Below are positions 2,206 to 36,431 of a DNA stretch of 64,000 bases, piece after piece; position 1 is the stretch's first letter, and every line of letters begins with the position of its first letter. Origin of the DNA: Minisyncoccota bacterium. Its GTDB lineage: Bacteria; Patescibacteriota; Minisyncoccia; Phycocordibacterales; UBA2100. Both the position numbers and the translations under genes were made by a program. The stretch spans positions 202,814-266,813 of the forward strand of contig OZ253947.1 of the NCBI GenBank assembly GCA_965267345.1. Reading direction: 5' to 3'. The notes under the pieces were generated by a model, which was not told the DNA's origin, ran no database searches, and was given only the letters and a program-made list of their open reading frames with translations.

Positions 2206-2982
2206 CTATTCGCGAATGCGCCATCCACGACGCAAGAGCGACCAGACGACAATGCCGAGACTCAGTACGAGTCCGGAAATGAGTGCTGCGCCGACAAGAA
2301 GATTTGAATCGTGAATACCTACCATGGCGTAGCGGACGCCATCAACAAGGTAGAAGAACGGGTTGAAGAGTGTAACGGTCTGACCAAGTGGTGGCAGCAT
2401 GTCCAGTGTGTAGAACATACCACCGAGGAACGAGAGCGGCAGAATAATAAAGGTACTGAGAATGTTGAGTTGCTCGAAGCTCTTTGCCGCTAAACCGGTG
2501 ATGATACCAAGGAGGCTGAAGATGACCGAGATCCCAATAATGTAGAGCAAGAACAACAAAGGGTACTGCATGTGGACGGCACCAAACGCCACCCCGACCA
2601 GCACAATAGCAACGCCGACGATAACCGCACGCAGCACCGCGCTGACGACGTAGCCAACCAGCATCTCTAAATATGAAAGCGGTGCGACGAGTAACTCTTC
2701 AATACTGTGAATGAAGCGGGCGAAGTATAGCGCACTTGAAGAGTGGGTGAAGGCTGAGGTAAGCACGTTCATGGTGAGAATACCGGGAAAAACGAATACG
2801 ATGTAGGGGACGCCGCCAATCAGGTCAATACGCGTGCCCACGACTGAGCCGAAGACGAAAATAAACAGCGATGCAGAAATGAGCGGACTGAAAATGGTCT
2901 GAATGACCACGCGGAACGTGCGCTCAATTTCTCGTCGTACTAATGTGTAGAGTCCAATCCAGTTCATATTCATACTAGGCAT
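2206..2982 (-). CDS. ABC-2 family transporter permease
   Basis: Six-TM hydrophobic profile with an N-terminus typical of ABC-2 permeases. Overlaps the upstream ATPase gene by 8 nt. Confidence 0.8.
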   Translation of the reverse strand: MPSMNMNWIGLYTLVRREIERTFRVVIQTIFSPLISASLFIFVFGSVVGTRIDLIGGVPYIVFVFPGILTMNVLTSAFTHSSSALYFARFIHSIEELLVAPLSYLEMLVGYVVSAVLRAVIVGVAIVLVGVAFGAVHMQYPLLFLLYIIGISVIFSLLGIITGLAAKSFEQLNILSTFIILPLSFLGGMFYTLDMLPPLGQTVTLFNPFFYLVDGVRYAMVGIHDSNLLVGAALISGLVLSLGIVVWSLLRRGWRIRE

Positions 2983-3709
2983 CCTGTTTCATCACATCGA
3001 GATAGACATCTTCGAGTTTTTTCCCGCCGGCAATAAGTTCCTGCTTCGTGCCGGTTTTGATGATTTTTCCATGATTAATAAAAGCGATGTCTTCAGCGAG
3101 CAATTCAACTTCATCGAGGTAGTGTGAGGTCAGCAAAATCGTTTTACCGGCCTGTGAGAGCTGGCGCAGGTAGCCCCACAGCTCCCGCCGCAGCTCAACA
3201 TCAACGCCTGCGGTTGGCTCATCAAGAATGAGGAGCTCAGGGTCGTGTACGAGGGCGCGTGCGAGCACCACGCGGCGCTTGAGACCGCCCGAGAGCTCTT
3301 GGAACTTCTTGTGCTTGTGTGGCTCAAGATTGAATTGCGTGAGCAGCTCAGCAATGCGCTCGCGACGTTCTGCCTTACGGAGTCCGTAGTACCCGGCGAC
3401 GTAATCGAGGAGTTTCCAGACCTCCGAAAAGATGTCGACATTAAACTCCTGTGGTGCAATACCCACCGTACGACGCGAGGCGCGGTAGTCCTGTTCGACA
3501 TCGATACCAAAGGTGTGAATTGAGCCGCTGGTAATTTTAGTGATACCGACGATGCAGTTAATGGTTGTTGACTTACCGGCGCCGTTTGGTCCGAGGAGTC
3601 CTAAAAAGCCGCCACGTTTGAGGGTAAGTGAAATATCATCAACGGCAACGGTACTACCGTACGTCTTTTTGAGGTGCTCAATTGCCAGCGCAGGTGCATC
3701 GGTATCCAT
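2975..3709 (-). CDS. ABC transporter ATP-binding protein
   Basis: Walker A GPNGAGKST, ABC signature LSGGLKRR, Walker B LLILDEPT and an H-loop. The true start is probably MDTDAPALAIEHL at 3709; the longer track ORF has an unlikely Cys/Pro-rich extension. Confidence 0.85.
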   Translation of the reverse strand: MDTDAPALAIEHLKKTYGSTVAVDDISLTLKRGGFLGLLGPNGAGKSTTINCIVGITKITSGSIHTFGIDVEQDYRASRRTVGIAPQEFNVDIFSEVWKLLDYVAGYYGLRKAERRERIAELLTQFNLEPHKHKKFQELSGGLKRRVVLARALVHDPELLILDEPTAGVDVELRRELWGYLRQLSQAGKTILLTSHYLDEVELLAEDIAFINHGKIIKTGTKQELIAGGKKLEDVYLDVMKQDA

Positions 3710-3881
3710 AGGGTGCAGAGTATAGCACAGGCATGCCGGCACATCTGTGCATAAGGTGGCGCTGCGGCAGTGTGGTACCATGAGGCCAGTTTCGAATGCG
3801 GTTTGTGTGCAGGGTGTTCTCTTTCGTCGTGCAGCAATCGAGTCGAACAGGTCAGCAATTAGTAGAACAAACGTGTACACA

Positions 3882-4160
3882 ATGGACGAACAGCGAAAAA
3901 TGTTCACCGGTAACTGGACCTGCTCACAATGTGGCGGTCCAATTACTGAATTGCCGTTCGAGCCTGATCCGGCTCGTGAGGGCACGCTTATGTGTCGTGA
4001 CTGTCACCGCAAGCGCCAAGGCGCCGACCGTCCACGACAGGAGCGCACGATGCACGAAGGAAATTGGACGTGTGCAGATTGCAGCGGTGCGATCACCAGC
4101 TTGCCGTTTCAGCCGCGCGACACCAGCAATCTGAAGTGCCGTGACTGCTTCCGCAAGTAG
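3882..4160 (+). CDS. Small protein with two tandem C4 zinc ribbons (DksA/TraR-like CxxC-x18-20-CxxC)
   Basis: Two repeats of GNWTCxxCGGxITxLPFxP...CRDCxRK. Start chosen at the internal ATG 3882 (MDEQRKMF). Confidence 0.55.
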   Translation: MDEQRKMFTGNWTCSQCGGPITELPFEPDPAREGTLMCRDCHRKRQGADRPRQERTMHEGNWTCADCSGAITSLPFQPRDTSNLKCRDCFRK

Positions 4161-6253: not shown

Positions 6254-6478
6254 TTGCGTATCATGGATATTCTTACAACACTTCAGGTGCTTGCGTTAGT
6301 ACTCGCTCTCGGTACCGCATACTCGTGGTATCAATTTTATAAGGTGCTTGCAAAAAAGTGCGATACCTGTTCAGTTGATTTGCACCAGAGCCCTTTCAAA
6401 TCAAAGTGTTTTGTGGGCGCTGTCTTTTTCACTGCTGCATTTGTTCTTGCGCTCTACGCGCTATCGCTAGTAGCCTAG
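6254..6478 (+). CDS. Small membrane protein with CxxC pair, hypothetical
   Basis: 74 aa with two TM helices flanking KKCDTCSVDL...KSKC. Confidence 0.4.
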   Translation: MRIMDILTTLQVLALVLALGTAYSWYQFYKVLAKKCDTCSVDLHQSPFKSKCFVGAVFFTAAFVLALYALSLVA

Positions 6479-6501
6479 TATAGGAAACTGTATACAAAAA
6501 A

Positions 6502-6533
6502 ACCGGGACAACTTACGTTGCCCCGGTAGTTTT
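6502..6533. terminator. Bidirectional hairpin terminator between convergent genes
   Basis: ACCGGGACAAC-TTAC-GTTGCCCCGGT (11-bp stem, 1 mismatch), A7 upstream and AGTTTT downstream. The stop codon of the minus-strand ORF lies in the loop. Confidence 0.6.
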
Positions 6534-6767
6534 CAGTGTGTCGATCTCCGAGCGCGGATATTGTCTTCCAGTCGCTCCACATCTCAAATCTCCGCGTCGC
6601 GGGTTGAAATGTGATGGGATGTAGAGTTTATCTGCGTCGTTATCTCTCTGAGAGAGCCAAACGTTCCCACCACACTCCGGGCATTGAATCTGCACAGGAG
6701 AAGCGCTAGGGAGCGACGGTGCTGGTGCACCCGAGGGTGATATCTTCCGCCCTGTGTAGCGATCCAT
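6513..6767 (-). CDS. Small protein with CPECGG zinc-ribbon-like motif, hypothetical
   Basis: Good Shine-Dalgarno GGAGG 7 nt upstream of the ATG. Contains CPECGG...C. Its 3' end overlaps the terminator stem. Confidence 0.45.
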   Translation of the reverse strand: MDRYTGRKISPSGAPAPSLPSASPVQIQCPECGGNVWLSQRDNDADKLYIPSHFNPRRGDLRCGATGRQYPRSEIDTLKTTGAT

Positions 6768-6923
6768 GTTGTACCTCCATCAAAGACCCACCGCCCCCAA
6801 GAATGCTGGAGTGGGTGCTCAAAGTCAATAACACACTAGTCCACACGTCGTACGTACGCACACAACGGTGCTTGGTATGTAGTGCTATGCTAGGAATAAT
6901 GAGAGAGGTAGTTATGACGAGCT

Positions 6924-9900
6924 ATGGATGGGATTGAACGCGGCACTGGCGCCGGCAAAACTCCTGACGGAGATGTTGAGGCAAATGAACAGGCGCTTGC
7001 GCGGGAAGAGATCCACAAGGCTCTTGAAGGAAAGGGCGAACTGTCTGACATTCCTGCTACTGTTGCAAAAATAGTTGAGCAAGCAAATGAGCGATCGCGG
7101 GGATTCTCACCGAAAATATCCTCGGAGGATCTCACATCAGTGCTCACGAGCGTGCGTGAAGCACATCCTGAATACGCAGCGGCACTTGAACAAAAGGCGG
7201 AGCGACGGGCGCTCGAACAAGTCATCTCACGTCTGTACGCCATCGATATGGTTGGACGCATGCGAACGTCAGCCACGAAACGCTTTGAGTTGGAAGTAAA
7301 AAAAGCACAGCGGCAGTTACAGAGTGCACAGACAAACGAAGAGAAAGAAGAGGTACGCAAAAACCTTGAAACCCTCAAGAATGATATTGAAGCAGAACAC
7401 AAAAAGTTTGCCGACATGGAGAGGAAAGTGCGTACGGCGTCAATCGAAACGTCGGTGCAAGATATTCTGGATGATGCGATACCGGATACCTTAGGGGTGA
7501 AAGACGCAATGGGTCGCGAGGCGATCAAAAATACCGTGCGCTTTGCACGAGGAGCTATTGATAAAATGAAAAACCGAGGCAAGCCTGATGCTGTCGGGTT
7601 CCTCAAAACTATCCAAGGGAAATTACCATCATTCTATCCGCGTCGCGGTGAGAGTGACCAGGTAAAAGAAAGTCGCGAAACAGCCCGCGAAGTAGCCAAG
7701 GATCTCAGCATCGAGATTGCTGAGCTCAATGAGTATGGCGATCGTGACATTCGCAAACAGCCCGTATACCCGAAAACACACTTCCGCTGGTGGCATCCGC
7801 AGGAGATGGCAGCACGAAGTGGCATTGGTCGCGCTGGTGAATGGGTCACCTCATATCTGGAAACACTGGGGCTTGTGTCGGCGTTTTCATACGGTGTTGC
7901 TACGACGCTTGACTTGCCACCTGTCTCGCTTAGTAACAACCCGGTTGGCTGGAGTGCGCTTGCCGTTGCGACAGGAGCACTTCTCGTGCGACAGTCGCTC
8001 GCATTCAAATCTGATGTTGAGAAAGAAGCACTCAGATCAAAGCGCACACTATCAAATAAGATTCCCGTATGGATGTTCCCACTCCGTGCTGTTGCCAGTA
8101 CGCTTGAGACAACGGGTATTTTTCTCAAAACTGCAGCAAAACATCCGGTGCGTGCATCGGCTGCAGGTATATCAACATGGGCAGTTGGTACCGCATTGAC
8201 GAAAGCCATACTTATCTCCTTGCAATCGCAAGCAGTGACCGAACAGGGTGTTGCGGGTCATGTGGATGCGGTGAAGCAAGAGTTGAGCCAGCTCGAAGAC
8301 GTTGATGGCCTTACGCCAAGTATGAAGTTGTTTGATGGTCTTATCGATCTTTCAGGATTCGTACCTGAAGGAATGTTTGGCAGCAATCAACCGAAAGAGC
8401 GGCAGCCAGGTGAAGGACTCACGGTGACGGAGCGTGTTGAAAATCAGCCCGACGCTCTTTTACATAGAATGCAGGTAGCCATTAAAGCAGAAGCTGGCGA
8501 CCCTGACGCCATGAGAGAGGCAAAAAAGTGGGGCATCCCACTGTCGGGAACTGCTGGATTGGGACCGCGTGCCGTTGCGCTAGCACAACTCATTGGCCTA
8601 ACGCTTGATGAAGCGCGAGCACTTACCGGTCGCGATGACGGCACCATTCAAGAGACGTCAGCAGAGGTGCGCGCAGGACGTGAGAAAATCCGCACTTTCG
8701 CACAATCACACGGTCTTAGTGACTATATGATCGAGGAGGATATGCAAGATCCACAACTGGTGGTGCGTGCACTGTCTGAACAGTTCAGTGATTCGATCAG
8801 TGATGACATTTCAGAATTCACCAGTAACTACGATCTATTCTTCAGCACGATTAATGATGTGACATCAGCAACGACTGCCACAGCATTTATAAACACACTC
8901 GGAGCGGGACAACCAACACCGAGCCCAGATGACGTGAAGCGAGCAGCTGACCAACTCAAAGCATCGGCTCGAAACATTCAGACCGAGTACGATGAGTACA
9001 GCAATAAGGTATCCGATTTGAGCCGGATTATGGGCGAGAGCATTAAAGCAGTGTACGTTGAAAACAATACCGCAGGAGCACAGTTTATCGATGTAAACAA
9101 AATCGCACTTACTCCTGAACCACTGAAGCTTGATTTCACGAACCTCGACCGCATGGTTGCCGATATAGAGACGACGATGCAGGAAGTGGGGGTCGATAAG
9201 CGCCCTGATGCTATTGGTGATCCAAAAGCTGAGCAGACGCGCTTTGAAGAGTACATGCAGGACGCGGGGATTCGCCTCGACAACCTTGCCGAGTTTTTAA
9301 GTCCCTTTAACGAGATTGAAACCATTGTCGCACTTGAAGCGGGTGAGGATCTCGATCCGGAAATTCGTGACCAACGCGTATTTAATAAAACTATGCAGAT
9401 TCTTGGCATGTCATTGGCGATTCAATTTGCAATGCTACTTGCCGTGAACATTCCGGCAACGCGACGATTGCAACGCGTGCAGGAACAGTGGGGCGAACAA
9501 AATTCGGAACTCATTACCAATGCGGAAGGGCAGATTGTCGACTTCATACACAAGCGTATGAACCGACTCATACATCAGGCACATGCAACGATTAATCGAC
9601 TCGAGAAAAAGCACAAGAGTGTTAAATTCGCGTTCCCCTATGAGCCGGTTGCGCAGAGCGACGTACGACGAGTATTGCGTGCGGTTGGCACTGAAGACTA
9701 CATCAAACAAAACCAAATCATGCAGCTTCTGAGTAAGGGTCCCGACATTGATTTGTCAATCAACAATCGATACTCAAACTGGCTTTTTGCCCTTGGGGAC
9801 CACAAAAATGTTCAGACTATTATTAACGAACTCTTGCCGGGCTGGGACGATGGGCGCCGCCACATTGAGCAGCTGCAGCGTGAATCAGGTGAGAAGCCGG

Positions 9901-11063
9901 AAAAGCGTAGCGGCACAAGGAAAGCACCGCGAATCACGGGACGGTGGCATAATATGGACGAGCTAACGCCCGAACAAGACGTGCGCGCGTACGAGATTGC
10001 AGTGCATAGCGAGCTCAAGCGTCGCGATGAGCTTGATATATCACTGCATGAGGCGTGGCTCAGCAAAAACAAAGAGACGCGCGTCGGCAAACTGTTTAAG
10101 GGTTTTTCAGGAGCTGGCAGTGGTATGCGTTCAGCGATGCGTAAAGGACTTGCAAGAGCAGGGCTTGAGGGGCGATTTGGCATGCGCGCCAATGCTGATG
10201 AGGTGTGGACACACACCTTTAAGATGGCCGCCGAGAATGCAAGTGTTGTAAATCAAATGAATGGAAAACTTGCGCGCCTTCGCGATAAAGCTGAAGCACG
10301 TAAAAAACGCATTGAAGAACTCTTTAAGGATCTCTCGAGAAACCACGTGCTGTATAAATACGAAAAAGCGCGGGAGAAACTCGCTCAAGCTTACAAGTCG
10401 GAGTATCTCTATAAATATGATAAACCGCTCTGGAAGAAAACAATGAATGCCGTTGCACCATTTACTCGTCCCGCTTTTGAGGAAACGGTAAACGCCATCA
10501 CCAAAAAGTTCAAAAAAGAACAGGTGAGCGATGACACGCGGCCATTCGATGCACTCACAGGCTACTTTGATGACTTGGTGGAAAAAATTGCTGCGCAGCA
10601 AGATGAACTGACACCTGAAGTTATTAAAGAGCGTGTTGATGCACTGCTTAAAGCAGCAGAACATACACGAGTTGGTTTTGAAAAAAGTCTCAATGCGACA
10701 TTCGGCACAGGGCATTCAGCGGAAATTACTATCTCTGATACCGGTGAGGGCGCAAAAATGAGTATTGATGTGCAGGGGCCACTGGGTCGTTTCGAGCAGG
10801 AAGCACTGCTCACGCCTGCCATAATGGGCATGTCGAACGATGATAATCTTGAGCGTGCAGCTGGCGCAGGACTCCTCGGTCCGGTATTGTGGAGCAAATC
10901 GCGAAAAAACTTCACATTTAATCCGAAAGACAAACAGATGAAGACGGTACGCGCTAACAAGGCGTTTGTAGATGCGTATATGACGATTTGGGAACAAATG
11001 GAAGAGGCGGCAAAAACCCAACAGGCGGCACAATCTCAAAATGAAGAAGCAACGAATGCGTAA
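6924..11063 (+). CDS. Giant hypothetical protein (1379 aa) with internal TM hairpins and coiled-coil regions
   Basis: Single uninterrupted ORF with GAGAGG upstream. No signal peptide. Hydrophobic helix pairs at about aa 300-360, 390-430 and 820-845. The long E/K/A/L-rich remainder looks coiled-coil. I recognise no catalytic motif. Confidence 0.8.
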   Translation: MDGIERGTGAGKTPDGDVEANEQALAREEIHKALEGKGELSDIPATVAKIVEQANERSRGFSPKISSEDLTSVLTSVREAHPEYAAALEQKAERRALEQVISRLYAIDMVGRMRTSATKRFELEVKKAQRQLQSAQTNEEKEEVRKNLETLKNDIEAEHKKFADMERKVRTASIETSVQDILDDAIPDTLGVKDAMGREAIKNTVRFARGAIDKMKNRGKPDAVGFLKTIQGKLPSFYPRRGESDQVKESRETAREVAKDLSIEIAELNEYGDRDIRKQPVYPKTHFRWWHPQEMAARSGIGRAGEWVTSYLETLGLVSAFSYGVATTLDLPPVSLSNNPVGWSALAVATGALLVRQSLAFKSDVEKEALRSKRTLSNKIPVWMFPLRAVASTLETTGIFLKTAAKHPVRASAAGISTWAVGTALTKAILISLQSQAVTEQGVAGHVDAVKQELSQLEDVDGLTPSMKLFDGLIDLSGFVPEGMFGSNQPKERQPGEGLTVTERVENQPDALLHRMQVAIKAEAGDPDAMREAKKWGIPLSGTAGLGPRAVALAQLIGLTLDEARALTGRDDGTIQETSAEVRAGREKIRTFAQSHGLSDYMIEEDMQDPQLVVRALSEQFSDSISDDISEFTSNYDLFFSTINDVTSATTATAFINTLGAGQPTPSPDDVKRAADQLKASARNIQTEYDEYSNKVSDLSRIMGESIKAVYVENNTAGAQFIDVNKIALTPEPLKLDFTNLDRMVADIETTMQEVGVDKRPDAIGDPKAEQTRFEEYMQDAGIRLDNLAEFLSPFNEIETIVALEAGEDLDPEIRDQRVFNKTMQILGMSLAIQFAMLLAVNIPATRRLQRVQEQWGEQNSELITNAEGQIVDFIHKRMNRLIHQAHATINRLEKKHKSVKFAFPYEPVAQSDVRRVLRAVGTEDYIKQNQIMQLLSKGPDIDLSINNRYSNWLFALGDHKNVQTIINELLPGWDDGRRHIEQLQRESGEKPEKRSGTRKAPRITGRWHNMDELTPEQDVRAYEIAVHSELKRRDELDISLHEAWLSKNKETRVGKLFKGFSGAGSGMRSAMRKGLARAGLEGRFGMRANADEVWTHTFKMAAENASVVNQMNGKLARLRDKAEARKKRIEELFKDLSRNHVLYKYEKAREKLAQAYKSEYLYKYDKPLWKKTMNAVAPFTRPAFEETVNAITKKFKKEQVSDDTRPFDALTGYFDDLVEKIAAQQDELTPEVIKERVDALLKAAEHTRVGFEKSLNATFGTGHSAEITISDTGEGAKMSIDVQGPLGRFEQEALLTPAIMGMSNDDNLERAAGAGLLGPVLWSKSRKNFTFNPKDKQMKTVRANKAFVDAYMTIWEQMEEAAKTQQAAQSQNEEATNA

Positions 11064-11160
11064 AGACATGTCGTTCTTTCACGTATTGACAGGTCGTGAT
11101 ACATGACAGTATAGTTTCACTAGAGTGCTATGTTGACTACGTGCTGAAAAGGAGCGCACA

Positions 11161-11511
11161 ATGTCCTTTATCGCTAAGCTACTTGCGTGCACCGTTGCCG
11201 TATTCATCTTCGCAGCTATTCTAGAGCCCAGAATGACGCTCGGAAATGAGATGGTGTTTACCATCGCGGTACTCGCATGGATCATTACCTGCATCGCGGC
11301 GTTGCATGCGTTGGTCAGCGACAGGCATGGCCTCGGCAGAAGTCTCGTATTCGCTGCGCTCAGTGTCACCGCTCTGGGTGTGCTGAGTGAGCATGTGCGG
11401 GAAGCGTGGGGCCATGATCCTCGTGAGATCGTTATCTTCATGGGCTACGCCTACGTGGTGCCTGCCACGATGGCTTACAAGTATCTTTTCTTCTGGCACG
11501 ATACGAGTTAA
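11161..11511 (+). CDS. Hypothetical membrane protein (4 TM)
   Basis: Shine-Dalgarno AAGGAG 6 nt upstream. Four hydrophobic helices. Confidence 0.6.
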   Translation: MSFIAKLLACTVAVFIFAAILEPRMTLGNEMVFTIAVLAWIITCIAALHALVSDRHGLGRSLVFAALSVTALGVLSEHVREAWGHDPREIVIFMGYAYVVPATMAYKYLFFWHDTS

Positions 11512-11581: not shown

Positions 11582-11875
11582 CTACTCATATCCGTCACGT
11601 TCTTGCGGCTCTCCGTCGGGGTCGAGTATATCTTCATTGGCTTCTCGAGCGCGATCCGCTTCCTCTCTTCTGCTGCGGTCTTCATCGCGCCACTCGCGCA
11701 TGATACGTCTATTTTCGAATAGCTTATTTGTTTTCTCGGCACCTCTACGCCCCATACTTTTCTGGGCCGCTTGATCGTCTTTCAGTACCGCTTCTCGTAC
11801 TTTCTTTCTTTGGTTTTCCTTCAATACCCATACCTCTAGTGTAGCAGCGCAGGCTTGTGTCGTCACCCGCAGCAC
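11582..11875 (-). CDS. Highly charged small hypothetical protein
   Basis: 97-aa K/R/E/D-rich ORF. No Shine-Dalgarno and the start is uncertain. Could be non-coding. Confidence 0.3.
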   Translation of the reverse strand: MLRVTTQACAATLEVWVLKENQRKKVREAVLKDDQAAQKSMGRRGAEKTNKLFENRRIMREWRDEDRSRREEADRAREANEDILDPDGEPQERDGYE

Positions 11876-11916
11876 GTATACTTACATCTATTACTAGGGG
11901 TTTTAGTAGTGCGTAT

Positions 11917-13044
11917 ATGAAATTCTATACATACTTGCTTGTTGCAACGCTGCTGGTACTGCCAAGTGCAGCAGGAGCGGCAACATTTCAGACAGGTGAG
12001 CAGCCAACAACTGCTCGCGGCGAGGTGATCAATGATGACATCTACATCGCCGGTGGTAATGTCACGAGCAATGCCGATATTGCAGGTGACTTGCTGGCAG
12101 CCGGTGGCAACATTTTAGTAAACAGCCCAGTATCAGGCGATCTGATGGTTGCCGGTGGCAACATCACGGTACTCGGTTCAGTTGCGGACGATCTGCGCAT
12201 TGTTGGTGGCAGCATTGTTATCAGCAGCACAGTTGGCGGTGATGTTATTGTCGGCGCCGGTGACGTGACACTCTCAGGCGAGCGTGTTGGTGGCGACGTT
12301 GCGATTGCTGCCGGTGTGGTACACGTTGACACGCCAATTGCAGGAGACGCACGCATTGGTGCTGGTGAAGTATTCATCAACGCACCGATTGCCGGTGACG
12401 TTGAGCTGCACGCAGACCGCGTGACAATTGGTGAAAACGCTACAATTAGCGGTACGTTGACCTACACTTCACCACGCGAGGCCGAGGTGGCCGATGGTGC
12501 ACAGCTCGGTGTTGTCGAGTACACGGAACGCGCGCAGAAGAGCGAAAAGGGTGGTGCCGCAATGGCAGCACTCGTTTCAACCGGTGCACTGATTGGTGTG
12601 CTGGTGAGTCTCGTTGGGGCACTTGTATTGGGCTTGCTCGTGCGACGCTTCACCGCAGAAACGGTGCGCATGGCAACCGCGCAACCACTTGCACATCTTG
12701 GTTGGGGAGTCGTGGCGCTGATCGTAACGCCAATTGTTGGTATCCTCTTGCTGGTAACCGTCATTGGTGCGCCATTTGGTATCATCGCGCTATTACTCTA
12801 TGTCGTGTACCTGATTCTCAGTAGTTTCCTTGCACCAATTCTGCTGGGAAGTGTACTCTCACGTTGGGTACTCAAGTATGGCGAGTATCGTGTTGACTGG
12901 AAAACCATACTGATTGGTGTGGTTGCGTACGCGATTCTCTCACTCATTCCAATCATCGGATGGATTGCGCAGTTCGGTCTGTTCCTCATTGCACTCGGTG
13001 CAGGAGCGCGTCTCGATCTGAAGATCCTCAAAGAGTGGTGCTAG
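11917..13044 (+). CDS. Secreted beta-helix repeat protein (bactofilin/LiaF-like repeats) with C-terminal 4-TM domain
   Basis: Start at the internal ATG 11917 gives a signal peptide MKFYTYLLVATLLVLPSAAGAA. About 12 degenerate repeats of the form (I/V)xGD(L/V)xxAGGxIxV. The last ~130 aa are strongly hydrophobic. Confidence 0.65.
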   Translation: MKFYTYLLVATLLVLPSAAGAATFQTGEQPTTARGEVINDDIYIAGGNVTSNADIAGDLLAAGGNILVNSPVSGDLMVAGGNITVLGSVADDLRIVGGSIVISSTVGGDVIVGAGDVTLSGERVGGDVAIAAGVVHVDTPIAGDARIGAGEVFINAPIAGDVELHADRVTIGENATISGTLTYTSPREAEVADGAQLGVVEYTERAQKSEKGGAAMAALVSTGALIGVLVSLVGALVLGLLVRRFTAETVRMATAQPLAHLGWGVVALIVTPIVGILLLVTVIGAPFGIIALLLYVVYLILSSFLAPILLGSVLSRWVLKYGEYRVDWKTILIGVVAYAILSLIPIIGWIAQFGLFLIALGAGARLDLKILKEWC

Positions 13045-29222: not shown

Positions 29223-30034
29223 TTGATATTTTCCAGTTAGAATTTATGCAACGAGCGTTTATTGCAGGACTGGCGCTTGCACCACTGCTGTCTGTGCTTG
29301 GTGCCTTTGCGACGCTGCGAAAGATGTCCTTTTTTTCTGAAGGAGTAGCGCATGCCTCCTTGCTCGGGGTAGCGTTAGCAATCATAGCCGGTGTAGTGCC
29401 TTTTTATGGTGCACTTGTGATCGGACTAGTTCTCGGGGTAGTGATATTCATCCTAGAGCGTTATACAAAAATAGCCTCAGATGCAACTATCGGTATTATT
29501 TTTACGACCGGAATGGCGCTTGGAATCTTACTCATTTCGCTAGAGCCAGGATATCAGCCCGACCTCATTAGTTTTCTGTTCGGGAACATTCTTGCTGTGA
29601 GCTGGGGTGATGTATGGACGATAGTTGTGTTGTCGTCCGTAATACTTTTCTCTGTCTATCTGTTCTATAAACAGTTAGCATTATTGGCATTTTCTGAGGA
29701 AATTGCGTGGACGTCTGGATCAAACACCACGTCTTTGAATCTGCTTTTCTACGCCCTGCTTTCATTAGCAACAGTGCTTGGGGTGAAGCTACTGGGGATC
29801 ATCCTTGTGAGTGCCCTTTTAATTGCTCCAGCTGTTTCCTCAAGAGTTCTCACGACTTCTTTTAATTCGTATGTATTTCTCTCGGTACTATTTTCAGTTG
29901 TTTCCTTTGTCGTTGGACTTCTTTCTTCCTACTATCTCGACATACCGTCAGGGGCTTCAATTGTTCTTACTGCGACGCTCCTTTTCGGCTTAGTTCTTTT
30001 GATTAAGCCGTTCACACAACGATTGCCACACTGA
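29219..30034 (+). CDS. znuB: Zinc ABC transporter permease (ABC-3 family)
   Basis: 8-TM ABC-3 permease that overlaps znuC by 4 nt. Confidence 0.9.
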   Translation: MIDIFQLEFMQRAFIAGLALAPLLSVLGAFATLRKMSFFSEGVAHASLLGVALAIIAGVVPFYGALVIGLVLGVVIFILERYTKIASDATIGIIFTTGMALGILLISLEPGYQPDLISFLFGNILAVSWGDVWTIVVLSSVILFSVYLFYKQLALLAFSEEIAWTSGSNTTSLNLLFYALLSLATVLGVKLLGIILVSALLIAPAVSSRVLTTSFNSYVFLSVLFSVVSFVVGLLSSYYLDIPSGASIVLTATLLFGLVLLIKPFTQRLPH

Positions 30035-30168
30035 TCAAAAAAGTACTTAAATTAAAATGAGACTGGAACTGGACTGGCTCGCGTGGAAGGACGCTTTTCG
30101 AACATACAGATGGCAGGACGTTTTTTCAGAACCTCAAAATACCATTGAGCAGATAAGCGACTTAGTTG

Positions 30169-30552
30169 CTATTGCTCAATAACGGCCTTTAGTTTTTCTA
30201 GCACCTCTTGAGTGAACGGATTTTCTAATTCTCCTTGGTCTACCCACTCAAAATACTCCATCTCAGTTTTATTATCGTTGAGCGATTTGTAGGTATATCG
30301 CACATTGTAGTTTTTATCAGATTTCTGAAGAGTGAAGATTTTGTCTTTTTCGTATTCAGTTACGTAGTAAGTATCCCAAACTCCACTTTCGTCACAGTTC
30401 CTGTATTCCGTCCCTATTTTTGTGGGGCTAGTATCTCGCTGTTCTTCAATCAGTCCATCAATCCAAAGAGGTGTGTTGTTAGGGTTGGTGGTGAATTCAA
30501 AAACTTCGGAAATTGGCCTATCTATTTTTGTTGAAACTTTGTTTTCTTTCAT
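30169..30552 (-). CDS. SRPBCC (Bet v1/polyketide-cyclase-like) protein
   Basis: 127 aa. MKENKVSTKIDRPISEVFEFTTNPNNTPLWIDG... is a typical SRPBCC N-terminus. Confidence 0.6.
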   Translation of the reverse strand: MKENKVSTKIDRPISEVFEFTTNPNNTPLWIDGLIEEQRDTSPTKIGTEYRNCDESGVWDTYYVTEYEKDKIFTLQKSDKNYNVRYTYKSLNDNKTEMEYFEWVDQGELENPFTQEVLEKLKAVIEQ

Positions 30553-31055
30553 ACATTTTTCTGATCAGCAAATCTGCCTTTTTCATGTTTTATCTCGGGA
30601 GCAAGAGGGTTTTTATTTCTTTCTTGCATTGATTGAGGAACTTGATCATAAGGGACGAGATGTACCCCTAAAGAAACAAGAGATTGTCTAATGTTCTCAA
30701 TCTTTTCTTCTTTTAGTGTAGGAACTTCAGAATAAGAGACGAGTTCGCCCTCTAACTTTTCAGGGCTTTCTTCGAAATATGAGCCATCTAGTTCATAAAG
30801 AAATCCTGCGTTGTTGAGTAAAGCTAGCTTGCCCTCCTGAAGTTTATCTACATACATTTCACCATTGTCAGAAAAAGAGACAGCTAGTTCGTCACCTGTT
30901 CCGTAGATCATGGCGATTGCGTATCTTTTGTCAGCAGTAGCAAAAACTACCCCTCTCCCATCTACTGCCTTGTGTGGAGTTGGTTTGAAGGTTTGAATGT
31001 TGCCAACCCTTGATCCATGATATACGTTCATACTATGAATTTTATCAAAACCCAT
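30549..31055 (-). CDS. Hypothetical protein (168 aa), island cargo
   Basis: No homology recognised (MNVYHGSRVGNIQTFKP...GRGVVFATADKRYAIAMIYG). Overlaps the SRPBCC gene by 4 nt. Confidence 0.5.
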   Translation of the reverse strand: MGFDKIHSMNVYHGSRVGNIQTFKPTPHKAVDGRGVVFATADKRYAIAMIYGTGDELAVSFSDNGEMYVDKLQEGKLALLNNAGFLYELDGSYFEESPEKLEGELVSYSEVPTLKEEKIENIRQSLVSLGVHLVPYDQVPQSMQERNKNPLAPEIKHEKGRFADQKNV

Positions 31056-31169
31056 AACTCAAAGCACGTTTTCTCAAAAGTCGCAGTAATCCTTTGTTGC
31101 TATAATGTATACAGCGCACAGGTAGTAGTCGCGCTTTGTGACGCTCGTTAGAAGTAATTGATATTGCGT

Positions 31170-31385
31170 ATGGCACACATAAAAGGAAATCGTGATGGTA
31201 AGGGCGGTAGAAACGAAACCTACCAAATTGGTTCACGAAAAAAAGTTGCTCGTAAGACAGCCGTAAAAGAGGTCAAACAAGGAAAGCACCCTGACGCACA
31301 TGTCTACAAGAGAGGAAGACAGGAATATGTTCGAGACAATCCTGACTACTCGAAGAAGGACAATGTAAACAGGAAAAAGAGGTAA
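31170..31385 (+). CDS. Small basic protein, hypothetical
   Basis: 71 aa, K/R/G-rich, contains a KGG motif. Weak evidence. Confidence 0.3.
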   Translation: MAHIKGNRDGKGGRNETYQIGSRKKVARKTAVKEVKQGKHPDAHVYKRGRQEYVRDNPDYSKKDNVNRKKR

Positions 31386-31495
31386 ATGGAAAAGTTACTG
31401 GCTTAGATAGAGCTTGCTTGAAAAGAGATAAGATTGAGTTGCGGTCATTTTGAAACAGCGATCGAAAAGTAACACCTCCCAAAGAAAAGTCCCAT

Positions 31496-31684
31496 CTATT
31501 GTTGGGACTTTTCTTTTTTCTTAGCTCTTTTTCGATCAATCCACGAAGCCCCTAAAAAGAGGGTTAGGATCAACAATGGCGGAAAAAGTATCCCAATGAC
31601 CAAACTGCCCCAAAAGTTCTTTTTCAACTCTTTATCAGACATTCTCCTTGGCTTGAACCAAGAAGTTTTTTCTTCTTTATTCAT
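31496..31684 (-). CDS. Small membrane protein, hypothetical
   Basis: Start MNKEEKTSWFKPRR. One TM (GSLVIGILFPPLLILTLFLGASW) and a K-rich tail. Confidence 0.35.
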   Translation of the reverse strand: MNKEEKTSWFKPRRMSDKELKKNFWGSLVIGILFPPLLILTLFLGASWIDRKRAKKKEKSQQ

Positions 31685-31918
31685 ATTGTTCGCGTAGGTT
31701 TTACTTGTAATGATTGTGAGCAGGCAACAGAAAAGGCCACACAACTCACACCGATAGCTCCTTTCAGAACTACCCGACACCCTTTCGGGTGAAGACCTAC
31801 GCGAATAAGTGGCGGTTTATGTGGCCGTCTCTATTCGCGTAGGATTTATGTCACCATGCCTTCAGAAATCTGAAGGGTTAGGTTTGTAAATACATTATAT
31901 CAAATCTCGCCCCCACCT

Positions 31919-33010
31919 CTAGCTCGTAGAATTCTGCTCCTGCCTTACAAAAAACTGTACGGCATGTGGGTTATGCAGATGAACTAAGTATGTTTTTACT
32001 GACCTCTTCTTTCCTCGTACAAAAATTTTTCCAGAAAATCTGTATTGCTTCTTTGTAATAAGATCTTCGTGTTCAGCATGTACAGCCCTACATACCTTGT
32101 TCATAAAACTCCAATTTTTGATTTTGGCACTACCAATTACGTAGATGTTCTCACATGCTTCATGTATTGACCCTCTAATTCTTGAGGCATGAAGTTCAAC
32201 ATCGTTACGATCTCGAGTAGCTTTTGAAGCAACAATTTTTATCGTACATCGTGTATATTTTCCCCTGAATGTCTCTTCTACTGATGTGTCTCCAACTTCT
32301 CTCTGAGAAAAGTTTTCGAGAAATTTGATCAGGTCATTCACTTCTACTATGATCTCTTGGTTTGGCTTTTCAAGAAAAACCTTAGAACCTAATGTTGAAA
32401 GCTCCTGTACTAAAATTGGGAAAAACACACCCAATTCTTGTATTTTTTCAAATTGCTTGATGAGTAATCTCAGATCGTCATCTTGGGTAAGGTTAGGAAC
32501 AATATAGTCGTTCATAAATTGTTCGAGCGCTGAAGGGTATTCGTCTTTCAGGATTTGTTGTGTTGCGTAAAGATCCAAAGATTTCTTTTGTTTCTTTGAA
32601 AGATGTCTCTTCGATCTGTTTAGTAAAGTTTCAGAGGTGAAAATATAGGTAGCATGTACGAAATTCTTTGTTTTATGTTTTCTGTCACGCATAACGACTA
32701 TGACTTCATCCTCATCCCACACCAAACCCTCGTCTTCCTCATTTCCAATCCAGTGTACTTTTACTCTTGGGAAAGATGTAGTAGTGTTTGTCTCGACAGA
32801 TCTAACAAATGAATTTACCCGACCTTCAATGTCATTCTTTATTGCAAGGTATTCTGCTTTCTTCCAAAATAAACTGACAAATTCCCAGAACATTGCTAAC
32901 CACTTTTTTACTTTGTCAGGATTTTTGAAAATGACATAGACAACAATAAGGGTCAGTACTACCCCCGCGGAAAAACTAGATAAAAGTTGTACAATACCTT
33001 GTTCAATCAT
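31919..33010 (-). CDS. Membrane-anchored 363-aa protein of unknown function (island cargo)
   Basis: N-terminal TM (IVQLLSSFSAGVVLTLIVVYVIF), then a ~330-aa cytoplasmic K/E-rich domain. Translationally coupled (ATGA overlap) to the upstream zinc-ribbon gene. Confidence 0.6.
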   Translation of the reverse strand: MIEQGIVQLLSSFSAGVVLTLIVVYVIFKNPDKVKKWLAMFWEFVSLFWKKAEYLAIKNDIEGRVNSFVRSVETNTTTSFPRVKVHWIGNEEDEGLVWDEDEVIVVMRDRKHKTKNFVHATYIFTSETLLNRSKRHLSKKQKKSLDLYATQQILKDEYPSALEQFMNDYIVPNLTQDDDLRLLIKQFEKIQELGVFFPILVQELSTLGSKVFLEKPNQEIIVEVNDLIKFLENFSQREVGDTSVEETFRGKYTRCTIKIVASKATRDRNDVELHASRIRGSIHEACENIYVIGSAKIKNWSFMNKVCRAVHAEHEDLITKKQYRFSGKIFVRGKKRSVKTYLVHLHNPHAVQFFVRQEQNSTS

Positions 33011-33270
33011 AGCTTTTTCTTTCTTTCATCAAGGTATTCTGTTAGTGAAGTGATACACTCGGGATCATCACAAATCATATTTATTGCCCCAGATTGAGGC
33101 AAAATTGAGTACAAATTTTCATTCGTTATTTGTTTGCCACAGAACTTACAATTTTTCTTGCCAGAGTCAAAATCCTCTTTTGCCCCCATTTTGCCAAGAA
33201 GTGTATCTAGGTCTCTTTCGTGTACAGTGTTCAATTTTCTTTTATCGGTTTCGTCCATAAAGTTTTCCAC
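33007..33270 (-). CDS. Small zinc-ribbon protein (87 aa), first gene of two-gene operon
   Basis: CKFCGKQ, 22 aa, ICDDPEC. Acidic N-terminus. Confidence 0.55.
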   Translation of the reverse strand: MENFMDETDKRKLNTVHERDLDTLLGKMGAKEDFDSGKKNCKFCGKQITNENLYSILPQSGAINMICDDPECITSLTEYLDERKKKL

Positions 33271-33597
33271 ACCTTTCTGTTTACAAATGTGTGTTGATAC
33301 AATCCATTATACCCCTAAAACAAAGGATTTCATACTGCTAGCAGGATACTTGTCTCACTCTATTTAGCTTTATTGTAACGTTGTTTATCTGTTATAATAG
33401 ATACACAATCGAATATGGTTTAGTTTTTGAGGGCTTTATGCCATTCCGCTGACCTATCAAATAAATCAGCGAGCAAACTTTTTTGAATTCCGAAAATTGA
33501 ACACTCAACTATCTTTGGATTTTTGGTGTTTAGCTTTCGGGATTTTCTTATTGAAGCAATCGTCCAGGTCCAAGATCTTGGTCGATTGTTTTGTTTT

Positions 33598-33783
33598 ATG
33601 GCAAGCACAGAACTTACAAAAGAGTTTCAGCAAGTCCTCTACAAAGAAATTGGGTTGGAACTTGATGATAAAGAAGCAAGCAAGATACTTTCTAATCTTG
33701 TGAGCTACTTTGATTTGCTTGCTCTATTGCACCACAGAGATCAAGTCAACGTCTCTGAAAACTCATACTCAAGAGGTAATTAG
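33598..33783 (+). CDS. Small hypothetical protein
   Basis: 61 aa from MASTELTKEF. A 17-24-nt stretch of its coding sequence is repeated just past its stop, in a direct repeat at 33629-33653 and 33782-33805. Confidence 0.3.
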   Translation: MASTELTKEFQQVLYKEIGLELDDKEASKILSNLVSYFDLLALLHHRDQVNVSENSYSRGN

Positions 33784-33997
33784 CAAGTCCTCTACAAAAA
33801 ACTGGCTAAACACCACATTGGTGTGCATATGACAGTTCCCTGCACTGAGTGACAACTTCTCAACAGGGAGACCTCATATGCACATCAATCACTGGAACTT
33901 GGTTGAAGTTTCTGGCGCGAGGGATGAAAAAGTCGAGAAACGACAAAAGAGTTATGAGAAATACATTACAAGCTAAATCCTATGAGGGATAAAGAAG

Positions 33998-34240
33998 TTG
34001 TTCATTATGAAAAAGTATACAAAAGAAGAAAAGTTGGCTCGCAAACAACTGAGGGTCAATGCAAATAAATATAAGGATAATTTACCCAGAGAAACCGTCT
34101 TGGTGCGAATAGATAAAAATTGGCACAAGGCACTCAAGATCTATGCTGTTGAGCAAGAGATGACAATGTCTCGGATCATAGATAGTTTCTGTGAACATTA
34201 TCTGGGTACTGAGAGGTACAAAGAAGTATGCAAAAAGTAA
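33998..34240 (+). CDS. Ribbon-helix-helix (CopG/Arc-like) DNA-binding protein
   Basis: TVLVRIDKNWHKALKIYAVEQEMTMSRIIDSF fits the beta-strand then helix RHH pattern. Confidence 0.5.
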   Translation: MFIMKKYTKEEKLARKQLRVNANKYKDNLPRETVLVRIDKNWHKALKIYAVEQEMTMSRIIDSFCEHYLGTERYKEVCKK

Positions 34241-34674
34241 CTCCAAACAACACCAATAAAAAGGTTGTATCTAAGCTACGCCATGAAGACGAATTTGCTT
34301 CGTTTGTTGTTTGGGTTGCAACACCAAAAGAGCTTCGAGACCCAAAAACACAGGCAGAGTTAGCTCAGAAGTTTGGAGTTGGGCAAGACACGCTTTCTGA
34401 CTGGAAGAAAAGAGATGGGTTCTATGAAAAGGTCGCGAAAGTGAGAAAGTCGTGGGGTCGAGACAGAACTCCTGATGTCATTCATGCACTTTACAGGAAC
34501 ATTATGAAAACAGGGTCAGTGCAAGGTGTAAAGCTATGGCTTCAGTATTTTGAAGATTGGATGGAGAAAACAAACAGCTATGACCCCGCGAATGATCCGA
34601 TACGGCAGTTGTCGGATAAGGAGCTGATGGCTGAGATACGCAAAGCACAAAACTTCTTTCGTAAGAAGGACTGA
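34228..34674 (+). CDS. HTH DNA-binding protein (possible recombination directionality factor or regulator)
   Basis: TQAELAQKFGVGQDTLSDWKKRDGF is a helix-turn-helix. It overlaps the RHH gene and sits immediately upstream of the recombinase. Confidence 0.55.
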   Translation: MQKVTPNNTNKKVVSKLRHEDEFASFVVWVATPKELRDPKTQAELAQKFGVGQDTLSDWKKRDGFYEKVAKVRKSWGRDRTPDVIHALYRNIMKTGSVQGVKLWLQYFEDWMEKTNSYDPANDPIRQLSDKELMAEIRKAQNFFRKKD

Positions 34675-34707
34675 TAAATTATCAATAAATAAACTATAAT
34701 TATATTT

Positions 34708-36285: not shown

Positions 36286-36318
36286 CAGCCGGTTGCTCTA
36301 CCGCTGAGCTACCGCGGA
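36247..36318 (-). tRNA. tRNA-Asn (anticodon GTT)
   Basis: The reverse complement reads TCCGCGGTAGCTCAGCGGTAGAGCAACCGGCTGTTAACCGGTAGGTCGTAGGTTCGAATCCTGCCCGCGGAG. It forms a cloverleaf with a 7-bp acceptor stem, T-loop GGTTCGAATCC and anticodon loop CTGTTAA. CCA is not encoded. Confidence 0.85.
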
Positions 36319-36431
36319 ATGTGTTTCGCGCGGTATGCTCAGCGAGCTGAGCCCTGCCTGCCGGCAGGTACCGCGGAATACTGTTCAAAACGAACTGTCG
36401 TATTGTACACAACGGGGGTGCATTTTCAACG

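What the first reader, a model, noticed from the sequence alone, without database searches (positions are those of the whole stretch)
6924..11063. Giant 1379-aa ORF with internal transmembrane hairpins and extensive coiled coil, no recognisable domains
It is the largest gene in the window, uninterrupted, with an upstream GAGAGG and no signal peptide. Three hydrophobic helix-pair regions are separated by hundreds of residues of E/K/A/L-rich, probably coiled-coil sequence. Giant ORFs like this are characteristic of streamlined or episymbiotic lineages. Their functions are unknown; adhesion, a cell-envelope scaffold or host interaction are possibilities. Five antisense ORFs of 60-240 aa in the track lie entirely within it.
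Basis: seen in the sequence. Interest (0 to 1): 0.55.

Follow-up and report, generated by a model that had tools for sequence, protein, structure and literature searches.

The report
Orphan giant four-pass membrane protein module
The 1379-residue ORF is a real, selection-maintained gene for an almost all-helical, four-pass membrane protein found only in a few Parcubacteria (CPR) genomes, always followed by a small four-pass membrane protein; it matches no known family and its function is still only inferred.

Summary
The ORF (6924-11063, +, 1379 aa) exists as described and is the largest gene in the window. It is a genuine gene. Full-length, frameshift-free relatives occur in four other Patescibacteria/Parcubacteria genomes (56% and 26-31% identity), and pN is 0.28 against a saturated pS of 0.82. 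An exhaustive HMMER scan of 1.84 billion representatives found only these. Pfam, NCBIfam, PHROGs, PADLOC, PDB sequences and Foldseek (on low-to-moderate-confidence AF2 models) gave no significant match.

The family has four conserved TM helices (about 308-330, 341-363, 411-434, 823-847), not three helix pairs. The charge pattern predicts N-in/C-in with a roughly 385-aa acidic outer domain. The protein is about 71% helix, but heptad-like stretches are short. The antisense ORFs are compositional artefacts.

New findings: a conserved 116-125-aa four-TM gene lies immediately downstream. The module is absent from five closely related genomes. Its phylogeny disagrees with its flanks.

Best reading (about 0.4): an accessory, horizontally exchanged membrane-spanning complex. 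A toxin-immunity pair is the main rival. Interest is modest.

The parts
6924..11063 (+). Giant ORF, 1379 aa (stop included): founding member of an orphan Parcubacteria membrane-protein family
6872..6908 (+). Promoter-like site (TTGGTA-17-AATAAT, 9/12 matches, 6872-6900), then GAGAGG (6903-6908) ending 15 nt before the ATG. Weak, and not conserved in orthologs.
6924..7844 (+). N-terminal domain, aa 1-307. Predicted cytoplasmic and all-helical (aa 25-180 at pLDDT about 75-80). The most variable part of the family (42% identity to the close relative, 23-28% to distant ones).
7845..8012 (+). TM1 - short uncharged loop (11-12 aa; no K/R in 4 of 5 members) - TM2 hairpin, aa 308-363
8013..8153 (+). 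Basic loop, aa 364-410 (K+R 9, D+E 4), predicted cytoplasmic. Contains the weakly hydrophobic helix 383-405 that is deleted in P0004-P0006.
8154..8225 (+). TM3, aa 411-434 (88% identical to the UBA3458 ortholog)
8226..9389 (+). Acidic all-helical domain, aa 435-822 (K+R 35, D+E 70 over aa 440-820; the same bias in all five members). Predicted to lie outside the membrane.
8436..8783 (+). Best-conserved region of the whole family, aa 505-620 (39-45% identity even to distant members). Motif: AE[AS]GD-x12-P.S..[AP]G.GP[RK]A...L.G.s..E...[LF]TG.
9390..9464 (+). TM4, aa 823-847, the most hydrophobic segment (KD 1.85), followed by TRRLQR (positive-inside)
9465..11060 (+). C-terminal domain, aa 848-1379, net basic, predicted cytoplasmic. 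Holds the conserved core (aa 848-1050) with most of the residues invariant across the family (FP.E.V, V.R.LR, Y..L..L, PG, D...H). Ends in a small three-stranded sheet plus helices domain (aa about 1229-1379, pLDDT 80-88).
11086..11115 (+). Strong promoter-like site (TTGACA-18-TATAGT, 11/12 matches) in the 97-nt spacer between the giant ORF and the small ORF
11161..11511 (+). Conserved downstream partner: a 116-aa protein with four hydrophobic helices. Homologs (22-35% identity) lie about 75-110 nt downstream of the giant gene, on the same strand, in every locus with downstream sequence.

Best explanation
The ORF encodes a resident cytoplasmic-membrane protein of a small, previously undescribed Parcubacteria-specific family.

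Shown: it is a real gene under purifying selection. It has four family-conserved hydrophobic helices and is about 71% alpha-helical in the models. It forms a conserved two-gene module with a small four-TM protein encoded just downstream. The module is accessory, and its tree disagrees with the flanking genes.

Inferred from the conserved charge distribution (positive-inside rule): the N-terminal roughly 300 aa and C-terminal roughly 530 aa are cytoplasmic. TM1 and TM2 form a tight hairpin. TM3 and TM4 bracket a roughly 385-aa acidic helical domain displayed on the outer face.

Inferred mechanism: together with the small partner, it forms a membrane-spanning complex. A conserved outward-facing helical domain (core aa 505-620) is coupled through TM4 to a conserved juxtamembrane cytoplasmic core (aa 848-1050) and to long, faster-evolving helical arms. 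In other words, it would be an envelope tether, scaffold or transducer rather than an enzyme. Related Parcubacteria appear to gain, lose and exchange the module.
For: Gene reality: orthologs of 1375-1600 aa are colinear over the whole length with no frameshifts. pN is 0.28 against pS 0.82 in every 150-codon block.

Family size: only P0001-P0006 were found among 1.84 billion representatives and 5.8 billion clusters.

Topology: four hydrophobic peaks sit at equivalent alignment positions in all five members. Loop 1 is 11-12 aa, with no K/R in four of the five members. Loop 2 is basic. Region 440-820 has K+R 32-35 against D+E 59-73 in all five. The C-terminus is net basic.

Helical nature: AF2 secondary structure.

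No catalytic signatures: no Walker A or HExxH motif, and 0 Cys.

Partner gene.

Accessory status: L008 and L011 keep much of the BacA-HisRS-SET-UDG-DUF2914 block (L011 without the ABC-2 pair) but lack the giant gene. L007, L010 and L012 also lack it next to DUF2914, and no remnants were found in L007 or L008.

Discordance: the flanks pair the window with L004 (66-81%) and L001 with L006 (60-83%), whereas the giant protein pairs the window with L001 (56%) and all other pairs are 26-35%.

Rate: the giant protein is 26-31% identical where neighbours are 54-81%.
Against: The topology is only a prediction from hydropathy and charge. TM1-TM3 are moderately hydrophobic in the window protein (KD 1.0-1.4). 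The AF2 models are low confidence across the TM region (pLDDT about 30) and 48 and 62 overall, so fold searches cannot exclude remote homology to a known family. Nothing shows the protein is expressed, membrane-inserted or bound to the small partner. A strong promoter-like site lies between the two genes, so they need not be co-transcribed. The predicted outer domain holds the best-conserved block, so the fast evolution is not concentrated where surface-driven diversification would predict. A 25-residue stretch of that block resembles a generic helix-turn-helix pattern (each match is individually non-significant). If that were real DNA binding, the domain would have to be cytoplasmic.
Confidence: 0.4

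Rival explanations
1. Membrane-active toxin plus immunity pair. The giant protein would be a soluble-to-membrane alpha-helical pore former or effector, using its moderately hydrophobic Ala/Gly/Ser-rich hairpin to insert into a target (competitor or host) membrane. The small four-TM protein downstream would be the producer's immunity protein, as with pore-forming colicins and their 3-4-TM immunity proteins (established knowledge).
For: A small four-TM gene lies immediately downstream in every locus and evolves even faster than the giant (35% against 56% identity). The module has a patchy presence/absence among close relatives and its phylogeny is discordant with the flanks. There is no signal peptide, no Cys, and a tight hairpin with an uncharged loop. 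Generic helical Foldseek hits include ClyA and colicin Ia, but they are non-significant (E 0.79 and 1.0).
Against: No Colicin or other toxin domain was found in any member. Foldseek TM-scores are 0.16 or below normalised to the query. No lysis, secretion or delivery gene is conserved nearby. The family-wide positive-inside charge pattern and a strongly hydrophobic TM4 fit a resident membrane protein. Divergence is spread over the whole length rather than confined to a swappable C-terminal toxin module.
Confidence: 0.17
2. A very divergent member of an already known envelope or cell-biology family (for example a division or cytoskeletal membrane scaffold, or a secretion or competence machine subunit) that escaped detection because the family is tiny and the structure models are poor.
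For: Only 5-6 sequences were available for the profiles and AF2, so sensitivity is limited (mean pLDDT 47.9 and 62.1). The gene sits among housekeeping genes at a fixed chromosomal position.
Against: Profile searches of the whole protein and of the two best-conserved blocks against all PDB sequences found nothing credible. Pfam scans of every member found only single sub-threshold, mutually inconsistent hits. NCBIfam was run on the window protein only and gave one sub-threshold hit. The gene is missing from five related genomes, including two that keep the same neighbourhood, which argues against a core function. The relatively well-modelled parts (aa 25-180, 666-915, 1229-1379) gave no Foldseek hit with E < 0.009.
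Confidence: 0.2
3. Relic of a mobile element or prophage, for example a tape-measure-like protein (long, helical, with internal hydrophobic helices).
For: Length, helicity and internal hydrophobic segments resemble tape-measure proteins (from memory). GC3 is slightly low (0.48 against 0.56-0.67 in most neighbours). The gene is accessory and discordant with its flanks. Tape-measure and minor-tail proteins appear among the non-significant BFVD hits.
Against: There is no significant PHROG hit (best E 0.042). No relative was found in 2.9 million viral contigs. There are no phage, integrase or tail genes in any of the five neighbourhoods. The position relative to DUF2914 is the same in all carriers. 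BFVD TM-scores normalised to the query are 0.14 or below.
Confidence: 0.04
4. Not a functional gene: a chance ORF or a decaying pseudogene.
For: None beyond the lack of annotation and domains.
Against: A 4.1-kb open frame is conserved at full length in five species-level genomes down to 26% identity. pN is far below pS throughout. The codon-position GC pattern is typical of coding sequence (0.61/0.41/0.48).
Confidence: 0.01

Closest known systems
Mycoplasma MG_279/MG_280 two-TM family (TIGR04527, PF23067)
   Same: Large, helical, uncharacterised membrane proteins of genome-reduced bacteria. These are the only named families that give any hit at all.
   Different: The scores are far below the curated cut-offs (16.8 against 125 bits; 19.9 against 27.4 bits). 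The two models hit different, non-TM, K/E-rich stretches (aa 124-189 and 637-699). Only one of six members hits. This is compositional similarity, not homology.
Pore-forming colicins with their small multi-TM immunity proteins (e.g. colicin Ia, PDB 1cii)
   Same: Long helices, a hydrophobic helical hairpin, no signal peptide, an adjacent small 3-4-TM protein gene, and patchy distribution.
   Different: There is no Colicin domain. Foldseek gives E 1.0 and TM 0.11-0.13. This protein is twice the size, has four hydrophobic segments with a conserved positive-inside pattern, and has no lysis gene nearby.
Phage tape-measure proteins
   Same: More than 1000 aa, largely helical, with internal hydrophobic helices.
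   Different: There is no significant PHROG or Pfam hit, no relative in viral contigs, and no tail genes nearby.
SMC/Rad50/MukB-type coiled-coil ATPases
   Same: Size, and generic helical Foldseek hits.
   Different: There is no Walker A or ABC head. The longest predicted helix is 57 residues. This protein has four TM helices.
Membrane-anchored helical scaffolds of Gram-positive envelopes (EzrA; YhgE/Pip and EsaA-type proteins with large helical ectodomains). Comparison from memory.
   Same: TM anchors combined with long helical extramembrane domains. An ectodomain bracketed by TM helices, as in Pip/EsaA.
   Different: No sequence or profile similarity was found. The TM number and arrangement differ. 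There are large helical domains on both the N- and C-terminal cytoplasmic sides. The gene is accessory rather than core.

Membership tests
SMC/Rad50-like coiled-coil ATPase | N- and C-terminal ABC-type ATPase head with a Walker A P-loop | tested here: not met
   No [AG]x4GK[ST] motif anywhere. No SMC_N or AAA hit.
SMC/Rad50-like coiled-coil ATPase | Very long (at least 300 aa) antiparallel coiled-coil arm | tested here: not met
   The longest modelled helix is 57 aa and heptad-like stretches are 30-50 aa. The models are low confidence.
Phage tape-measure protein | Homology to TMP families (PHROGs or Pfam) | tested here: not met
   Best PHROG E-value is 0.042, to an unknown-function family. No Pfam TMP hit.
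Phage tape-measure protein | Located in a tail-gene cluster or in viral genomes | tested here: not met
   The neighbourhoods are housekeeping genes. No relative in IMG/VR contigs.
Pore-forming colicin / immunity pair | C-terminal ten-helix colicin pore domain | tested here: not met
   No Colicin hit in any member. Foldseek against 1cii gives E 1.0, TM 0.11-0.13.
Pore-forming colicin / immunity pair | Small integral-membrane immunity gene adjacent to the toxin gene | tested here: inconclusive
   A conserved 116-125-aa four-TM gene lies just downstream, but nothing shows it confers immunity.
MG_279/MG_280 family (TIGR04527 / PF23067) | Score above the curated family cut-off | tested here: not met
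   16.8 against 125 bits. 19.9 against 27.4 bits. One of six members hits.
   No such Pfam or NCBIfam hit. The N-terminus is hydrophilic. No T4SS genes nearby.
Lytic transglycosylase (SLT/lysozyme-like), considered for the AE[AS]GD...GLGP motif at aa 505-620 | Profile match to SLT or lysozyme-like families or structures | tested here: not met
   No SLT hit at E <= 1 or E <= 0.1 in any member. A profile of aa 500-620 against PDB lists no lysozyme-like chain at E <= 10.
Dynamin/mitofusin-like membrane remodellers | GTPase domain (G1 P-loop) | tested here: not met
   No P-loop. No Dynamin or MMR_HSR1 hit.
Known anti-phage defence systems (PADLOC-DB) | Match to any defence-system protein model | tested here: not met
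   No hits for four family members, the small partner, DUF2914 or the two small ORFs.
New family defined here (giant four-TM protein plus small four-TM partner) | Colinear full-length homology, four TMs at equivalent positions, and a downstream small four-TM gene | tested here: met
   for the window, L001, L005/L009 and L006. L004 meets the first two; its contig ends before the partner position.

The most novel reading that the evidence does not exclude
The giant protein and its small partner are a horizontally exchanged, lineage-specific cell-contact or membrane-attack module of Parcubacteria. The hydrophobic hairpin and helical domains would engage or insert into another cell's envelope (host or competitor), and the small four-TM protein would protect or regulate the producer. 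If so, this would be a new type of interaction or effector system in CPR bacteria, whose means of host contact are largely unknown.
Probability: 0.15. Interest if true: 0.75.

Novelty: categorically new. Interest (0 to 1): 0.38.

Why it matters
Roughly half of CPR/Patescibacteria genes have no assigned function, and how these tiny, probably symbiotic cells contact partners and organise their envelope is an open question. This analysis turns an anonymous large ORF into a defined, testable unit. It is a five-species family with a predicted four-TM topology, two conserved blocks (aa 505-620 outside, aa 848-1050 inside), an obligate-looking small membrane partner, and population-genetic behaviour (gain, loss, exchange) typical of interaction loci. 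'New' applies to the protein family: nothing known matches it. Whether its mechanism is new is unknown, and such orphan membrane proteins are common in CPR genomes, so the immediate surprise for a specialist is moderate.

Tried and rejected
1. Pfam, NCBIfam, PHROGs and PADLOC on the window protein; Pfam on all six members and PADLOC on four of them. Only sub-threshold, inconsistent hits.

2. phmmer and profile searches against all PDB sequences, for the whole protein and for the two conserved blocks. Nothing credible. The 8vd6 'CAP repeat' hit (E 2e-10) is the sum of five repeat matches, each with i-Evalue above 20, to a 25-residue helix-turn-helix-like pattern in a designed repeat protein. 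I rejected it as evidence of homology.

3. AF2 on two halves, then Foldseek against PDB (both halves) and BFVD (C half). No hit below E 0.009, all TM-scores normalised to the query at or below 0.16, and only generic long-helix proteins among the long alignments. The C-terminal sheet-plus-helices domain weakly resembles YfiA- or dsRBD-like small folds (probability 0.4-0.7, E > 0.4). I did not pursue this.

4. SLT/lysozyme idea for the AE[AS]GD...GLGP motif: no support.

5. Internal duplication between the N and C halves: none.

6. The word-indexed homolog search with the family alignment failed to recover even the known distant members. The JGI metagenome scans added only a duplicate of UBA3458. 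The viral scan was empty.

7. DUF2914 as a functional partner: rejected. It is widespread in Parcubacteria and occurs without the giant gene in five related genomes. The adjacency is therefore lineage synteny.

8. Antisense ORFs as overlapping genes: rejected.

9. Literature searches for DUF2914, UBA3458 and giant Patescibacteria proteins gave nothing relevant.


Full report
OBSERVATION. The ORF list shows an uninterrupted ATG-started frame at 6924..11063 on the + strand, 1379 aa. It is by far the largest in the window; the next largest is 634 aa. The N-terminus (MDGIERGTGAGKTPDGD...) is hydrophilic, so there is no signal peptide. GAGAGG lies at 6903-6908, but it ends 15 nt before the ATG. A weak promoter-like site precedes it at 6872-6900. 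Composition is A 10.6, E 8.8, L 8.3, K 7.0, R 6.7%, with no cysteine. There is no Walker A, HExxH or LPxTG motif.

IS IT A GENE? Yes. A word-indexed search of 5.8 billion clusters returned only the protein itself (on a 644,490-bp contig) and one 1375-aa relative at 55% identity. That relative belongs to Patescibacteria group bacterium UBA3458. An exhaustive HMMER scan of 1.84 billion 50%-identity representatives, using a profile of residues 200-1379, added three distant full-length relatives (P0004 1520 aa, P0005 1401 aa, P0006 1600 aa) and one 310-aa fragment, and nothing else. All are colinear over the whole length with no frameshifts. Between the window and UBA3458, synonymous sites are saturated (pS 0.82) while pN is 0.28, in every 150-codon block.

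The antisense ORFs (seven entirely inside and two overlapping the ends, at 60 aa or more) are no more numerous or longer than in codon-shuffled versions of the gene. They are not positionally conserved in orthologs, so they are by-products of codon composition.

NO KNOWN FAMILY. Pfam, NCBIfam and PHROGs gave only sub-threshold, mutually inconsistent hits, and PADLOC gave none. The best was MG280 PF23067 at 19.9 bits against a cut-off of 27.4, and TIGR04527 at 16.8 against 125. These two hit different K/E-rich stretches, and only one of six members hits. Sequence and profile searches of all PDB chains, with the whole protein and with the two best-conserved blocks, found nothing credible. The single low E-value, to a designed 'CAP repeat' protein, is the sum of five individually non-significant matches to a 25-residue helix-turn-helix-like pattern.

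AF2 with the five- to six-sequence alignments gave an N-half model at mean pLDDT 47.9 and a C-half model at 62.1. Foldseek against PDB and BFVD gave no hit below E 0.009, with query-normalised TM-scores at or below 0.16 and only generic long-helix proteins among the long alignments. Because the models are weak, remote homology cannot be excluded. I give that possibility 0.2.

ANATOMY, CORRECTED. Hydropathy on all five full-length members shows four hydrophobic peaks at equivalent alignment positions: about 308-330, 341-363, 411-434 and 823-847 in window numbering. The third 'pair' is a single, strongly hydrophobic helix (KD 1.85).

The charge pattern is conserved family-wide:
- The loop between TM1 and TM2 is 11-12 residues and has no K/R in four of the five members.
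- The loop between TM2 and TM3 is basic.
- Residues 440-820 carry K+R 32-35 against D+E 59-73 in all five members.
- TM4 is followed by TRRLQR, and the C-terminal part is net basic.

By the positive-inside rule (established knowledge) this predicts N-in and C-in, with a roughly 385-aa acidic, all-helical outer domain between TM3 and TM4. This is an inference, not a demonstration.

The combined models are 71% helix and 2% strand. The 11 helices of 30 or more residues total 440 residues, and the longest is 57. Heptad-like stretches are 30-50 residues each. 'Helical' is therefore right, but 'hundreds of residues of coiled coil' is not supported. The only non-helical element is a three-stranded sheet in a well-modelled C-terminal domain (aa about 1229-1379, pLDDT 80-88). 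The halves are not duplicates of each other.

Conservation is highest in the predicted outer block 505-620 (39-45% identity even to distant members; motif AE[AS]GD-x12-P.S..G.GP[RK]A...L.G). It is also high in the juxtamembrane cytoplasmic core 848-1050, which holds most of the residues invariant across the family. The N-terminal 300 aa and residues 1051-1228 are the most variable.

CONTEXT. In all five carrier genomes the giant gene is divergently adjacent to a DUF2914 membrane protein, inside a conserved housekeeping block: BacA, RNase H-like, HisRS, SET, an ABC-2 transporter pair and, in four of the five, UDG. BipA lies downstream in three of them.

I tested whether DUF2914 is a functional partner by looking at its closer homologs, which their sources name Pacebacteria, Kaiserbacteria or Parcubacteria. 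One (L009) is the same organism as P0005. Five others (L007, L008, L010, L011, L012; DUF2914 50-61% identical) have no giant gene next to DUF2914, and tblastn of L007 and L008 found no remnant. L008 and L011 retain much of the same block (L011 without the ABC-2 pair), with a cold-shock gene directly flanking DUF2914. The DUF2914 adjacency is therefore lineage synteny, and the giant gene is accessory.

A real partner did emerge. A 116-125-aa protein with four hydrophobic helices is encoded about 75-110 nt downstream on the same strand in every locus that has downstream sequence (window 11161-11511, L001, L005/L009, L006). It is 22-35% identical pairwise. Among all loci held at that point, an HMM of it hits only those loci; L013, fetched later and identical to L001, also carries it. 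Gene callers missed it in two of them. The window has a strong promoter-like site in the spacer, so co-transcription is not assured.

EVOLUTIONARY BEHAVIOUR. Flanking proteins are 54-83% identical among the five genomes, while the giant protein is 26-35%, except for window-L001 at 56%. The trees disagree. All four flanking genes pair the window with L004 (66-81%), and three of them pair L001 with L006 (60-83%); the giant protein pairs the window with L001. L004, the closest genome by its flanks, has a giant protein only 31% identical to the window's. Together with presence/absence among close relatives and a slightly low GC3 (0.48 against 0.56-0.67 in most neighbours), this suggests exchange or replacement of the module at a fixed locus. 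Strongly uneven evolutionary rates are the alternative explanation.

INTERPRETATION. The most likely reading (0.4) is a resident, accessory membrane complex made of the giant four-TM protein and the small four-TM partner. It would couple a conserved outward-facing helical domain to a conserved cytoplasmic core and long variable helical arms, acting as a tether, scaffold or transducer rather than an enzyme. The main rival (0.17) is a membrane-active toxin with a small TM immunity protein. That reading fits the gene pair, the patchiness and the discordance. It is disfavoured by the resident-type charge pattern, the absence of any toxin, delivery or lysis element, and divergence spread over the whole protein. 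A cryptic member of a known family (0.2), a phage or tape-measure relic (0.04) and a non-gene (0.01) complete the list. The remaining probability covers functions I have not thought of.

VERDICT. This is a previously undescribed, very small protein family with no detectable relative among known families, so it is 'new' at the family level. There is no evidence yet for a new mechanism, and orphan membrane proteins are common in CPR genomes. Interest is modest (0.38).

Noticed in passing
window 30000-36320: A low-GC island (GC 0.37-0.40 against about 0.53) ends at tRNA-Asn (36246-36318, -). It contains a large serine recombinase or integrase (34708-36285, +; phrog_95 E 2e-71) whose 3' end overlaps the tRNA, a 148-aa ORF with weak small-terminase/HTH hits (34228-34674), and orphan ORFs. 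It looks like an integrated mobile element or prophage remnant.
   Followed up: partly
window 31753-31884 (-): A full-length match to the Rfam LOOT RNA motif (RF03000; 73.5 bits against a gathering score of 46.4). It lies inside the low-GC island, immediately 3' of an orphan 363-aa ORF (31919-33010, -).
   Followed up: no
window 6254-6767: Two small ORFs are inserted between DUF2914 and the giant gene in this genome only. One is a 74-aa two-TM protein (6254-6478, +). The other is an 84-aa protein with a CPECGG...C zinc-ribbon-like pattern (6513-6767, -). A terminator-like hairpin called on the minus strand at 6502-6527 lies between them. Neither has a homolog among the small ORFs at the corresponding place in the other loci.
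   Followed up: partly
L001 14223-14600; L006 14888-15238: The small four-TM partner gene is not called in the public gene predictions for these contigs. In L001 an antisense 158-aa low-complexity ORF was called instead.
   Followed up: yes
L004 9922-10000; L005 9960-10000; L006 9879-10000: The distant orthologs have very short divergent intergenic regions (41-122 bp), no Shine-Dalgarno-like motif, and an A/T-rich TATA-like box within about 10 nt of the ATG. This may indicate leaderless or near-leaderless transcripts.
   Followed up: no
window 11857-13044 (+): A 395-aa ORF with an N-terminal hydrophobic signal or anchor, about 200 aa of Gly/Asp-rich repeats of roughly 18-20 residues (...GGN[IV]..xxxVxGDL...), and a C-terminal multi-TM region. 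No Pfam or PHROG hit.
   Followed up: no
window 2975-3985 (-): The ABC ATPase ORF is listed as 336 aa from a GTG, but its orthologs are 243-265 aa and align only to its C-terminal 70-76% or so. The true start is probably internal.
   Followed up: no
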